A stretch of DNA of 64,000 nucleotides from a virus (taxonomy: Duplodnaviria; Heunggongvirae; Uroviricota; Caudoviricetes), in IMG/VR virus record IMGVR_UViG_2718218452_000012; one strand, written 5' to 3'. The position numbers were made by a program. Below, piece by piece: positions 38,801 to 41,800 of this stretch. Every line of letters begins with the position of its first letter. The stretch's first letter is position 1.

Positions 38801-41800
38801 TATGACTCATCGTAACAGTCTCTTTGATCATGAAAAATCCCCCAGAGAATTGTCTGGGGACATTTTAGAATGGTTCAAAGGGGACATTACAGCTTGATGT
38901 TAACAATAGCCTGCTTCTCCTTGCCTTCCGGCACTCGCGACAGATTATGTTTAGACGACTGTCGTAGCGACGTATTTCTCCGTCAGGTAATGACCAGATA
39001 AGGTCCGGATCAACCACAGCAGGTTTCTTCACCTTTGCCCTCGAGAGTTTTTTGCGGGCGTTTTGCCAGTCCTTACGCGCCTGTTCAGACGGGAATAACC
39101 CGTAACCAGAGCTGTATACATCGCCACTGGCAACCAGCTCTCTGGCCAGAACGCTCATCAGATATCTTGTTGCCCCAGTTTTAGCTTCCAGTTGTCGTAA
39201 CGTCTCGCGCCCACTCTGGCGTACGAGTTCCACCACCTGCCCTTTAATTTTTTCCCGCTCTTCTTGTGTAAAAACTTTTGCCACAAGTCCTCCTGAACAT
39301 TACTTTATACCCTAAAATCAACACTTATCCCCTGAAACCAGGCGGAATTTCTGTATCCGGTTCAGAAATATGATTCACACAACGCTTTACAGGTGAACGT
39401 CCCAGGCGGATGACCAGTTCGTCCCATTTTTCGCGGAGTTTTGACGGGCTCATGATGTTTTTTACCCAGAATTGATCTCGCTGTACCCGACCAAACATTT
39501 CGCAAATTTGTCTGTGGCTTCTGCCATCCAGCATCCGCATTGTGCGCACGTCATTGGCCCAGGCTGTCCAGTTAGGCTCTTTTGGTCGCATGATCTCTCC
39601 ATCGTCGCTGGCAGCCTGTTCGTAAAGGTTCACGATCCGCCCCCAAATCCACTGCGCACACGCCAAATCCTCCCTGCTACCCCACTGGCGTTTTTTCGCA
39701 CTAAACACAACCGCGTCGGGGTTCCGGGTTAAAAAATCCTGTTCAGCGGTCTGCGGGTCCGGTTGCGAAGCTTCCGGACGAAAAGTGTTTTTATTCTCTG
39801 TAGTAATCTCTGTTGTATTCTCTGTAAGATCATCAGGCCATTTTGACCCGATGACATTGGGTCGTTTTGAACCAATGGAGCGTTTCATTTTGACCTCTTC
39901 CATCGTGTCATTTTGACCTGATGGAGCGGCGCATTTTAAACCGATGGATTCGCTCAATTTGCCACCATCTAAAAGCTCGCTCCCGTAGTTGATCGTGTAG
40001 AAATTGGTCATATCGCGCTTTGATTTATTGAGCTTTTCACAACGCAAAAGCCCCAGCGTTTTCAGACTTGCAAACGCGCGCTTTAACGTTGACTCTGACC
40101 AGAATGGGAACTGTTCCAGCCATTGTTCCGTTGTGTTGTAAATCCAGCGAACACCATCACATTCCATGCCGGAATTGGTATCTCTCAACCAGTAATGCAA
40201 CTGCTGCAACACAATGGCTTCATTTAAGCCAATCTTCATCGCAAGCTGTGTGTTTATAACCAGTGGGCGTTCAGCAAAAAGAAGGCTCATAATTCCATCC
40301 AGCTTTTTGTTGGTATTGCTGTCGATACGCAAGTTTGAAAGCAATTGCTTTTTCTATAAGTTCGTCAGTTTCACGATCCACTACGGCAGGATCAGCAAAA
40401 AGCAGTCCGGACTCCACCACATCGCCATATTCTTTGTTTAACCCGGCGATCATGTACGTGATGCTTTTTCCGTCACTAATTTCACGATACAACCTGAAAT
40501 CATTAATCCGAATAGCCTCCATAATTGCAGGCACTAGCGCCGTGAACTTTTCACGCTTATCCCTGGTGTCGATAGCCTTCCAGCGTTCGAATATCTTCAC
40601 TCGATTAACGCCAAGTGCTCGCTGATCAACCGCGCCACCTTCATCTGTGACACGCTGAACATCGATGTTCGGGCGCTCTTTCAAAGCCCAGAATGCTTCA
40701 GTGATTAATATCGTCGCCTGCTCCTGTGTCATTCCTGGTCGACATATCCAGGCATCCAGAGCCTCACGAGCCTGTTCAGGAGTGATTTTCATTGTTCAAC
40801 CGCCCCGCCCGCTTCGTCTTACGATATTCGTCATAAACCTTGGGATCATACAGAAGCTCGCCGCCAGATGCCTCCTGTAGACGCATCGCGCGACCTTCAG
40901 GAACCAGCTCTTGCCATTGAGAAACAGCAGATGGGTCAACGCCAGCAGCTTTCGCTACTTTGGCTTTCGTACCGTAAAAATTAATTACGTCTGATTTAAA
41001 CATCGCACCTCCAATATTGAGTTTTCTCAATGCTAATCACTCAAGGAATCTCAAGTCAAGGGTTATTAAGATATCTAAATATGAACGAGAAAACTTTAGG
41101 TCAACGCATTAGAGAAAGACGTAAGCAGGTAGGCTTAAGTCAAAACGGTTTAAGCAAAGCTGCTGGCGTATCTGGCTCATCAATTTCATTATGGGAAAGT
41201 GACCATACAGCCCCGCGCGGGCAAAATTTGCATCGCCTCGCCGAGGTATTGCAATGTTCACCAACTTGGATACTGTTTGGCGACGAGGACAAAACACCAG
41301 CTCCCCCTGTTTCACTCGATAGTGCCTTAGACTTATCGGAAGATGAGTTAGAGATGCTGCGTTTGTATCGCGCACTTCCTAAATCAGAGCAACAAGCACA
41401 ACTCAGCGAACTCCGCGCCCGCGTTGAGAATTTTAATCGCCTGTTCACCGAGCTATTAGAGGCTCGCAAACGCAACAAGCATCAATAATCATCCCTTCAC
41501 AAAATTTTAAAGCCTTACATTTCAATGTATTGGCTTTATCTTGCGCCAACACTTGAGTTTTCTAATCAAAAAACCTTGACGAAAAATAATGAGAAAACTA
41601 AATTACCTCCATCAAGACACCGCACGGTGTTCTCAGCAAACAGTTCCGCTACCCCGGCGTTAAGGGGAAATGAGGTCAGCATGGATACTATCGATCTTGG
41701 CAACAGCGAATCTCTGGTATGTGGCGTGTTCCCCAACCAGGACGGCACGTTCACCGCGATGACGTATACCAAAAGCAAAACGTTTAAAACCGAAAATGGT

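What the first reader, a model, noticed from the sequence alone, without database searches (positions are those of the whole stretch)
40776..41488. Two heteroimmune repressor/Cro modules with distinct operator palindromes flank near-identical replication genes
Module 2 (45916..46637) looks like DicA/DicC with operator-like palindromes TTAGCTAA and GTTAGTCATGACTAAC. Module 1 has a different repressor DNA-binding N-terminus, a Cro-like protein whose N-terminal 25 aa differ while the C-terminal 50 aa are identical to DicC, and a different palindrome TTGAGTTTTCTCAA. Each repressor would control its own dicF/dicB division-inhibition operon, so the cell carries two independently regulated copies of the DicB/DicF module.
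Basis: partly seen in the sequence, partly recalled or inferred. Interest (0 to 1): 0.6.

Follow-up and report, generated by a model that had tools for sequence, protein, structure and literature searches.

The report
Two known prophage immunity switches
The window holds two lambda-like prophage switches with different operators, each upstream of its own DicF/DicB cell-division-inhibitor operon; both switch types are already known from active phages, so this is ordinary phage modularity, and their side-by-side placement is probably an assembly artefact.

Summary
Module 2 (45916-46637) is DicA/DicC of the Qin type. Its palindrome GTTAGTCATGACTAAC is the published DicA operator Oc. Module 1 (40776-41488) is a homologous repressor/Cro pair, 58% and 70% identical to DicA and DicC, with its own operator family (TTGAG-N4-CTCAA). 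That motif occurs at positions that parallel the DicA sites, at both a PR-like and a PL-like promoter. Neither motif occurs in the other cassette. Each switch sits upstream of a DicF RNA and a dicB gene identical to K-12's.

None of this is new. Module 1's proteins are 100% identical to those of the functional phage mEp460_ev081, and module 2 is 98.4% identical to phage PhiR42_1. Each cassette occurs in about 800 of 5,426 complete E. coli genomes, and about 74 carry both. Multi-copy dicBF is already published.

"Independently regulated" is doubtful. The K-12 Rem antirepressor, shown to inactivate DicA, is encoded on the module-1 prophage, and phages pair it with both immunity types.

The adjacency is suspect. 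The arms meet at a zero-spacer palindrome (43773|43774) inside recE. No complete genome spans that join or a second one at 58452|58453. In strain C7 the two prophages lie 517 kb apart.

The parts
40776..41003 (-). Cro-like gene of module 1 (75 aa, P22_Cro family). The N-terminal helix-turn-helix third is cassette-specific. The C-terminal 44 aa are 43/44 identical to DicC.
   Evidence: 100% identical to the mEp460_ev081 protein.
41004..41080 (.). 77-nt OR-like intergenic region of module 1. Operator TTGAGTTTTCTCAA is at 41017-41030, abutting the -10 of the leftward PR-like promoter (-35 TTGACT 41059-41054, -10 TAGCAT ending at 41030). A second site, TTAAGATATCTAAA, is at 41066-41079 next to the repressor ATG. 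A weak third site is at 41041-41054.
   Evidence: Identical in mEp460_ev081.
41081..41488 (+). Module 1 repressor, 135 aa. HTH_3 N-terminal domain similar to P22 C2. No S24 peptidase domain. 58% identical to DicA.
   Evidence: 100% identical to the mEp460_ev081 'repressor protein C2'.
41553..41604 (+). PL-like promoter of module 1 (-35 TTGACG at 41576, -10 TAAATT ending at 41604), bracketed by two operator copies: TTGAGTTTTCTAAT at 41553-41566 and TTTAGTTTTCTCAT on the - strand at 41589-41602.
41681..41836 (+). ydfA homologue (DUF1391), first gene of the module-1 dicBF-type operon.
   Evidence: The C7 annotation agrees.
41930..42500 (.). Second divergent block. ydfB is truncated or fused and ydfC is replaced by unrelated sequence in arm A.
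42674..42725 (+). DicF sRNA, copy A.
   Evidence: RF00039, 76.7 bits
42900..43088 (+). dicB, copy A (62/62 identical to K-12 DicB).
43085..43276 (+). ydfD, copy A (intact).
43369..43773 (+). First 405 nt of the recE-like exonuclease gene of arm A, cut off at the palindrome centre.
43774..44178 (-). First 405 nt of the recE-like exonuclease gene of arm B, cut at the same nucleotide. The arms are perfectly palindromic for 598 nt on each side of 43773|43774.
44459..44647 (-). dicB, copy B (62/62 identical to K-12 DicB). The adjacent ydfD copy has an internal stop.
44822..44873 (-). DicF sRNA, copy B.
45216..45749 (-). ydfC, ydfB and ydfA of arm B.
45827..45880 (-). dicBp region of module 2 (-35 TTGACC at 45855-45850, -10 TAATCT at 45832-45827). 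DicA-type sites: TTAGCCATGGCTAA at 45830-45843 and TGTTATGGCTAACA at 45867-45880.
45916..46323 (-). dicA (135 aa, 134/135 identical to K-12, difference G43D).
46324..46406 (.). 83-nt dicA-dicC intergenic region. Oc (GTTAGTCATGACTAAC) is at 46375-46390, directly after the -10 of dicCp (-35 TTGACT at 46346, -10 TATTTT ending at 46374). A site at 46326-46339 (TTAGCTAATGCTAA) lies next to the dicA start.
   Evidence: PMC3441716 for Oc.
46407..46637 (+). dicC (76/76 identical to K-12).
38865..40792 (-). Arm A early-right genes: YdaT/cII-like (40271-40792), O-like replication initiator (39325-40344), DUF977/Ren-like (38865-39284).
46621..48551 (+). Arm B early-right genes: YdaT/cII-like, O-like replication initiator, DUF977/Ren-like. 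94% DNA identity to arm A.
34968..35219 (-). rem of arm A, 83/83 identical to K-12 Rem (the DicA antirepressor).
   Evidence: PMC10448788
52495..52758 (+). rem-like gene of arm B (87 aa, 64 identical positions over the 87-column alignment, about 74%, to K-12 Rem).

Best explanation
These are the early regions of two related lambdoid (Qin/mEp460-type) prophages. They share nearly identical replication genes and nearly identical dicF-dicB-ydfD-recE segments, but carry different immunity cassettes of about 720 bp.

What each cassette contains
- The DNA-binding third of a P22-Cro-type Cro.
- An OR region of about 80 nt with divergent promoters.
- A 135-aa DicA/Gifsy-type short repressor: a P22-C2-like helix-turn-helix, with no autocleavage domain.
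- An OL/PL region that drives ydfA...dicF-dicB.

Identity of the two cassettes
- Cassette 2 is DicA/DicC. DicA bound at Oc blocks dicCp, and by analogy DicA bound at the dicBp sites keeps DicF and DicB off. This is published for K-12.
- Cassette 1 is the immunity region of the functional phage mEp460_ev081. Its repressor is inferred to bind TTGAG-N4-CTCAA-type sites, which occupy the same promoter-proximal positions, and so to keep its own PL-dicBF operon off.

At the operator level the two switches are therefore most likely heteroimmune, which is the classical modular exchange of immunity regions among lambdoid phages.

Induction is probably not independent. Repressors of this class are inactivated by small antirepressors. 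The arm carrying cassette 1 encodes the exact K-12 Rem protein that derepresses DicA. The same Rem type accompanies both immunity types in phages. One Rem is therefore expected to release both switches.

Shown versus inferred
- Shown: gene content, homology, motif distribution, and identity to known phages.
- Inferred: binding specificity of repressor 1, and Rem cross-action.

The head-to-head adjacency of the two arms is most likely a contig-join or assembly artefact. In a real cell the two prophages would then sit at separate loci, the Qin site and serU, as in strain C7.
For: - Mosaic map: cassettes 40905-41625 and 46505-45805 are about 50% identical, inside flanks that are 94-100% identical.
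- Homology: repressors 58% identical, Cro proteins 70%. Pfam gives HTH_3 and P22_Cro only, with no S24 peptidase. PDB matches are P22 C2 at 8e-16 and P22 Cro at 2e-12.
- Operators and promoters occupy parallel positions, and neither motif occurs in the other cassette.
- Oc is a validated DicA operator. The K-12 sequence TTGTTAGTCATAACTAACAA differs by one central base (PMC3441716).
- DicA represses dicBp, and DicA/DicC form a bistable switch (PMC10448788).
- Cassette 1 proteins are 100% identical to mEp460_ev081. Cassette 2 is 98.4% identical to phage PhiR42_1, whose cI is 134/135 identical.
- Both DicF copies and both dicB genes are present.
- Prevalence: imm1 in 796 and imm2 in 850 of 5,426 genomes; the union is 1,572, so about 74 have both.
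- Rem: arm A Rem equals K-12 Rem. PhiR42_1 (DicA-type) has Rem at 100% identity; mEp460 and HannyBb (imm1) have it at 96.4%.
- Precedent for antirepressors acting across heteroimmune repressors: PMC3121763.
- Artefact reading.
Against: - No binding data exist for repressor 1.
- The two half-sites are related (TTAGY versus TTGAG/TTTAG/TTAAG, both around a 4-bp centre), and both N-terminal domains are about 50% identical to P22 C2. Weak cross-binding therefore cannot be excluded.
- DicA did not bind the Om and Oa sites in vivo (PMC3441716), so not every motif copy need be functional.
- Rem's action on repressor 1 is untested.
- Arm A's early-right operon is interrupted by an IS (37491-38831), which might prevent rem expression from PR.
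- No LexA box precedes either rem gene.
- I could not see reads, so the artefact reading of the junction is an inference.
Confidence: 0.85

Rival explanations
1. The two modules are functionally cross-immune. Each repressor binds both operator sets, so the two dicBF operons are co-repressed by a shared repressor pool.
For: The repressors are homologous throughout at 58% identity, and both are about 50% identical to P22 C2. The half-sites share TT.AG / CT.AA around a 4-bp centre, and some module-1 OL sites carry a CTAA or TTTAG half.
Against: No site of either motif family with 2 or fewer mismatches occurs in the other cassette. The recognition helices differ at about 5 of 11 positions: SGSSISLWESD versus SHVSVSQWERD. 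A single base change in Oc abolishes DicA binding (PMC3441716). The whole cassette, including both operator sets, has been exchanged as a unit with sharp boundaries, which is the pattern expected for a change of specificity.
Confidence: 0.1
2. The head-to-head arrangement is real. The genome would carry a rearrangement that placed the two prophage left arms back to back as a 2.4-kb near-perfect palindrome, so the two dicBF operons converge on one another.
For: The window is continuous sequence without Ns, and the arms are distinct sequences rather than a simple fold-back copy.
Against: - The join is at nucleotide 405 of recE in both copies, with no microhomology and zero spacer.
- The two prophages are in direct orientation in C7, so homologous recombination cannot produce this join.
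- No complete E. coli genome (0 of 5,426) spans it.
- The 36-mer across the join is absent from three contig collections, and the chimeric ORF is not on record.
- A second unsupported join at 58452|58453 bounds the same 14.7-kb block.
- From general knowledge, a perfect palindrome of 2 x 598 nt is a substrate for SbcCD and is expected to be unstable in E. coli.
Confidence: 0.1
3. The modules are inert relics of decayed prophages and regulate nothing. DicF and DicB would then be silent or controlled only by host factors.
For: Both prophages show decay. ydfD of arm B has an internal stop, an IS sits in arm A, and C7 has frameshifted structural genes. Nucleoid proteins also silence Qin (cited in PMC10448788).
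Against: All four regulator ORFs are intact and 99-100% identical to those of functional phages or of K-12, where the switch is experimentally active (PMC10448788, PMC3441716). The operator and promoter sequences are conserved base for base with mEp460_ev081.
Confidence: 0.05

Closest known systems
DicA/DicC-dicBF locus of cryptic prophage Qin (E. coli K-12)
   Same: Module 2 is this locus. DicA is 134/135 identical, and DicC and DicB are 100% identical. Oc, dicCp, dicBp, ydfABC, dicF, dicB and ydfD are all present. Module 1 has the same architecture gene for gene.
   Different: Module 2 sits in a fuller prophage, integrated at serU in strain C7, with intact cII-like and O-like genes and a 74%-identical Rem variant. 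Oc carries G instead of A at its centre, which makes it a perfect palindrome. Module 1 has different operators and recognition helices, and lacks ydfC.
Immunity region of temperate phage mEp460_ev081 (LR597641.1) and phage HannyBb (PP925841.1)
   Same: The module 1 cassette is 99.3-99.4% identical in DNA. The repressor, Cro and the OR intergenic region are 100% identical to those of mEp460_ev081. The cII-like, O-like, rem, dicB and recE neighbours are the same.
   Different: One base differs in the first OL site (TTGAGTTTTCTAAT here, TTGAGTTTTCTCAT in the phage). The ydfB-dicF spacer region differs. Here the prophage sits at the Qin locus and carries an IS.
P22 C2 repressor / P22 Cro immunity system
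   Same: Both repressor N-terminal domains are 47-54% identical to the C2 DNA-binding domain. Both Cro proteins belong to Pfam P22_Cro. The operators are inverted 5-mers around a 4-bp centre. From memory, the site TTAAGATATCTAAA resembles the P22 operator consensus.
   Different: There is no LexA-like autocleavage C-terminal domain. The 135-aa repressors have a short helical C-terminus instead, so induction cannot go through RecA-stimulated cleavage.
Gifsy-1/Gifsy-3 repressors and trans-acting antirepressors (Lemire et al. 2011, PMC3121763)
   Same: Short non-cleavable repressors of the DicA/RacR group. The antirepressor is encoded outside the immunity region. Heteroimmune prophages in one cell are linked by antirepressors that hit both repressors, which is the behaviour inferred here for Rem.
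   Different: Gifsy antirepressors are LexA-controlled, whereas no LexA box precedes rem here. Rem cross-action on the module-1 repressor is untested.
Multi-copy dicBF loci of EHEC prophages (CP-933O/M/P; Balasubramanian et al. 2016, PMC5069750)
   Same: Several dicF/dicB copies occur in one genome, each in a different lambdoid prophage context.
   Different: That work did not compare the immunity cassettes or operators of the copies.

Membership tests
Lambdoid CI/Cro-type immunity region (P22 C2/Cro - DicA/DicC subtype) | Divergently transcribed repressor and cro genes separated by a short intergenic control region | tested here: met
   The intergenic regions are 77 nt (module 1) and 83 nt (module 2).
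Lambdoid CI/Cro-type immunity region (P22 C2/Cro - DicA/DicC subtype) | Repressor with a Cro/C1-type helix-turn-helix domain, and Cro of the P22_Cro family | tested here: met
   HTH_3 at 2e-15 and 1e-15. P22_Cro at 3e-16 and 2e-11. P22 C2 and P22 Cro are the best PDB matches.
Lambdoid CI/Cro-type immunity region (P22 C2/Cro - DicA/DicC subtype) | The same operator motif repeated at OR and at OL, overlapping the promoters | tested here: met
   Module 1 has 3 sites in OR and 2 flanking the PL-like -35 and -10. Module 2 has 2 in OR and 2 at dicBp. Both are enriched over the rest of the window.
Lambdoid CI/Cro-type immunity region (P22 C2/Cro - DicA/DicC subtype) | The repressor binds its operators and represses PR and PL; there is a bistable switch with Cro | not testable with these tools
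   Published for the K-12 DicA/DicC allele (PMC3441716, PMC10448788). No data exist for the module-1 proteins.
Heteroimmunity between the two modules | Each repressor acts only on its own operators | tested here: inconclusive
   The sequence evidence favours it: the motifs do not cross-occur, the recognition helices differ, and the cassette was exchanged as a unit. Binding specificity itself cannot be computed here.
DicA/Gifsy-type short repressors controlled by antirepressors | About 135 aa, with no S24 peptidase or Ala-Gly cleavage module | tested here: met
   Both are 135 aa, and Pfam finds helix-turn-helix families only.
DicA/Gifsy-type short repressors controlled by antirepressors | Small antirepressor gene in the same prophage, outside the immunity region | tested here: met
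   rem at 34968-35219 is identical to K-12 Rem. A rem-like gene lies at 52495-52758. Action on the module-1 repressor was not tested.
DicA/Gifsy-type short repressors controlled by antirepressors | Antirepressor under LexA control (the Gifsy paradigm) | tested here: not met
   No CTGT-N8-ACAG box lies upstream of either rem gene. The only box in the window is at 61102. The inducing signal is also unknown for K-12 Rem (PMC10448788).
dicBF operon | DicF RNA followed by dicB, downstream of ydfA, under the repressor-controlled PL-like promoter | tested here: met
   Two RF00039 matches at 76.7 bits. Both DicB proteins are 62/62 identical to K-12. ydfA (DUF1391) is present. ydfC is present only in arm B.

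The most novel reading that the evidence does not exclude
The two switches are insulated at the operator level but wired together by a shared antirepressor. Rem from the mEp460-type prophage is identical to the K-12 protein that inactivates DicA. It would release both repressors through their conserved C-terminal halves, so firing of either prophage's early-right operon would unleash DicF and DicB from both loci at once. This would be an E. coli counterpart of Gifsy prophage crosstalk, acting on cell division.
Probability: 0.45. Interest if true: 0.35.

Novelty: already known. Interest (0 to 1): 0.15.

Why it matters
It matters little as a discovery. Heteroimmune lambdoid prophages that share replication and accessory modules are textbook. 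Both cassettes exist in sequenced functional phages, and multi-copy dicBF has been described.

Three points are useful:
1. The module-1 operator set (TTGAG-N4-CTCAA type) and its promoter layout can now be stated explicitly for a repressor found in about 15% of complete E. coli genomes.
2. The Rem allele distribution predicts that dicBF copies under different repressors are co-induced. This is cheap to test and relevant to how EHEC/STEC strains with several dicF copies control them.
3. The window contains two joins that look like assembly artefacts. Any inference drawn from the palindromic layout should be discarded.

Tried and rejected
- Source of the palindromic junction. I searched for it in complete E. 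coli genomes, GTDB species representatives, metagenome contigs and viral contigs. I also looked up the chimeric 196-aa ORF by exact sequence. Nothing was found, so neither the source nor an independent occurrence could be identified.
- Natural short palindrome or restriction site at the break as the cause of the junction. The native sequence is ...TTAGCGCA|CAGGAATTG, with no symmetry about the break. Rejected.
- Homologous recombination between the prophages as the cause. They are in direct orientation in C7, and recombination would give collinear hybrids. Rejected.
- Divergence between the two recE copies as the cause of the break. In C7 the copies are identical from -598 to +515 around it. 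Not supported. A third diverging copy in the source genome remains possible but untestable.
- LexA boxes upstream of rem. None found.
- The arm-A replacement block. The 205-aa fused ORF and the antisense 106-aa ORF gave no Pfam or PADLOC hit. PHROGs was run only on the antisense ORF and also found nothing.
- Tool problem. Two loci fetched as the second call of a turn (L003, L007) never appeared in the Python sandbox. I re-fetched L003 as L004 and used protein comparison for L007.
- No structure prediction or large protein-database search was run. Identities to named phage and K-12 proteins already settled the family assignment.
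Full report
**What is in the sequence**

The region 34000-53800 consists of two related prophage early regions laid out as mirror images around 43773|43774. Reading outward from the centre, each arm carries:
- the first 405 nt of a recE-like exonuclease gene;
- ydfD and dicB;
- a DicF RNA (RF00039, 76.7 bits each, at 42674-42725 + and 44822-44873 -);
- ydfA-type small genes;
- a repressor and a divergent Cro-like gene;
- a YdaT/cII-like gene, an O-like replication initiator and a DUF977/Ren-like gene.

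Both DicB proteins are identical to K-12 DicB.

**The two modules compared**

Module 2 is DicA/DicC. DicA is 134/135 identical to K-12 DicA and DicC is 76/76 identical.

Module 1 encodes two proteins:
- A 135-aa repressor (41081-41488) that aligns with DicA over its whole length at 58% identity.
- A 75-aa Cro (41003..40776) that is 70% identical to DicC. Its last 44 residues differ from DicC at one position.

A DNA alignment of the two arms shows sharp mosaic boundaries:
- 40905-41625 versus 46505-45805 is only about 50% identical.
- The flanks are 94-100% identical.
- The exchanged unit therefore holds the helix-turn-helix third of cro, the intergenic control region, the whole repressor gene, and the promoter region upstream of ydfA. 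That is exactly a lambdoid immunity region.
- A second, unrelated divergent block (41930-42500 versus 45500-45050) replaces ydfC in arm A.

The replication proteins are 96% (O-like) and 99% (cII-like) identical between arms. They lie outside the modules rather than between them, so the title's word "flank" is inaccurate.

**Operators**

In module 2:
- The 16-bp palindrome at 46375-46390 lies directly after the -10 of the predicted dicC promoter.
- It is the Oc operator to which DicA binds in vivo. The K-12 version differs by one central base (PMC3441716).
- Related sites lie next to the dicA start (46326-46339).
- Two more bracket the -35 and overlap the -10 region of dicBp (45830-45843 and 45867-45880).

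In module 1:
- TTGAGTTTTCTCAA (41017-41030) lies directly after the -10 of a predicted leftward promoter (TTGACT-18-TAGCAT). This is the same position as Oc.
- A second site, TTAAGATATCTAAA (41066-41079), abuts the repressor ATG.
- Two further copies (41553-41566 and 41589-41602) bracket the -35 and overlap the -10 of a predicted rightward promoter upstream of ydfA.

Counting half-site matches with at most two mismatches:
- The module-1 motif occurs 5 times in its cassette, 0 times in the other, and 25 times in the whole window.
- The module-2 motif occurs 4 times in its cassette, 0 times in the other, and 10 times window-wide.

The recognition helices differ (SGSSISLWESD versus SHVSVSQWERD). 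This is good sequence-level support for different operator specificity. It is not a binding measurement.

**Family assignment**

- Both repressors carry only Cro/C1-type helix-turn-helix domains and no S24 peptidase.
- Their N-terminal domains are 47-54% identical to the P22 C2 DNA-binding domain.
- Both Cro proteins belong to P22_Cro.
- They therefore belong to the short, non-cleavable DicA/RacR/Gifsy repressor group, which is inactivated by antirepressors (PMC3121763, PMC10448788).

**Already known**

- The module-1 cassette is 99.4% identical to the functional temperate phage mEp460_ev081 and 99.3% to phage HannyBb. Repressor, Cro and the OR intergenic region are 100% identical to those of mEp460_ev081.
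- The module-2 cassette is 98.4% identical to phage PhiR42_1.
- Cassette 1 occurs in 796 and cassette 2 in 850 of 5,426 complete E. coli genomes.
- A search with both cassettes concatenated hits 1,572 genomes, so about 74 carry both.
- Multiple dicBF loci in different prophages of one strain were described in 2016 (PMC5069750).
- The 2023 study of dicBF regulation already notes that mEp460_ev081 carries dicAC-, rem-, dicB- and dicF-like genes (PMC10448788).

**Is regulation independent?**

Probably not fully.
- Rem of Qin derepresses dicBp 165-fold by antagonising DicA (PMC10448788).
- In this window the arm with the non-DicA repressor encodes a Rem that is 83/83 identical to K-12 Rem. The DicA arm encodes a variant that is 74% identical.
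- Among phages, PhiR42_1 (DicA-type immunity) has the K-12 Rem at 100% identity. mEp460_ev081 and HannyBb (module-1 immunity) have it at 96.4%.
- Rem is therefore not part of the immunity cassette and is naturally paired with both repressor types.
- The simplest inference is that it acts on both, as Gifsy-1 and Gifsy-3 antirepressors act on each other's heteroimmune repressors (PMC3121763). This step is inferred, not shown.
- Two caveats apply. No LexA box precedes either rem gene. An IS (37491-38831) interrupts arm A between the replication genes and rem.

**The layout is suspect**

- The arms are perfectly complementary for 598 nt on each side of 43773|43774, and 99% complementary over 1,192 nt.
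- The native gene continues ...TTAGCGCA|CAGGAATTG. The window instead turns back as ...TTAGCGCA|TGCGCTAA. The break is at nucleotide 405 of recE in both copies, with no microhomology.
- Strain C7 carries both arms at about 100% identity, but 517 kb apart and in direct orientation. One is in the Qin-site prophage (ydfJ...rspA) and one in a prophage at serU/mtfA. Homologous recombination cannot produce this join from that arrangement.
- No complete E. coli genome spans it. Its 36-mer is absent from three contig collections. The chimeric ORF is not on record.
- A second join that no complete genome spans lies at 58452|58453. There the serU-type prophage's late region meets another prophage's Q region head-on.
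- The 14.7-kb block between the two joins therefore looks like a contig placed in the wrong orientation or concatenated without a gap.
- I rate a real palindrome at about 10%.
- This does not affect the comparison of the modules. It does remove any significance from their adjacency.

**Verdict**

The feature is a well-known kind made of two already-sequenced immunity types. The claim of independent control is probably overstated, and the mirror-image layout is most likely an artefact.

Noticed in passing
window 42582-44965, centre 43773|43774: Zero-spacer palindrome, perfect for 598 nt per arm. It joins the first 405 nt of two recE-like genes head to head. No complete E. coli genome or contig collection supports it, and there is no microhomology at the break. 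It is probably a contig misjoin. If real, it would be an unstable structure of unusual origin.
   Followed up: yes
window 58452|58453: Second join that no complete genome spans. A truncated SASA-esterase (nanS-p-like) gene of the serU-type prophage runs into the downstream region of a second, oppositely oriented Q antiterminator gene (60430..59657). The block 43774-58452 between the two joins is 14.7 kb.
   Followed up: partly
window 34968-35219 (-) and 52495-52758 (+): Two rem alleles. The one identical to K-12 Rem (the DicA antirepressor) sits on the prophage that does not carry DicA. The DicA prophage has a variant 74% identical, with a 4-aa insertion.
   Followed up: partly
window 41617-41630 and 45800-45813: A conserved 14-nt hairpin-forming palindrome (ACACCGCACGGTGT / ACACCGTGCGGTGT) lies exactly where the two arms become similar again. 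It is downstream of both PL-like promoters, in the ydfA leader. It could be an RNA element such as a processing or antitermination site.
   Followed up: no
window 41796-42413 (+) and 42075-42395 (-): In arm A, ydfB is fused into a 205-aa ORF and ydfC is replaced. The replacement holds an antisense 106-aa ORF that looks hydrophobic by eye and has no hit in Pfam, PHROGs or PADLOC. RefSeq annotates nothing here in strain C7.
   Followed up: partly
window 37491-38831 (-): An intact-looking 446-aa transposase ORF (annotated as ISEsa1 family, partial, in C7) is inserted between the DUF977 gene and flxA/relBE/hokD/rem of arm A. It may uncouple rem and Q from the early-right promoter.
   Followed up: no
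window 48804-51391: Cargo island in arm B between the replication genes and hokD. It holds a SMEK-domain protein whose N-terminus matches a PADLOC Argonaute-associated nuclease-type model (1.4e-20), a SAM methyltransferase, and a 235-aa ORF that looks hydrophobic by eye. It may be a defence module.
   Followed up: partly
window 44271-44516 (-): ydfD of arm B carries an internal stop. The arm A copy (43085-43276) is intact.
   Followed up: no
window 46375-46390 and DicA codon 43: Compared with K-12, Oc has G instead of A at its centre, which makes it a perfect palindrome. DicA carries G43D, just after the recognition helix.
   Followed up: no
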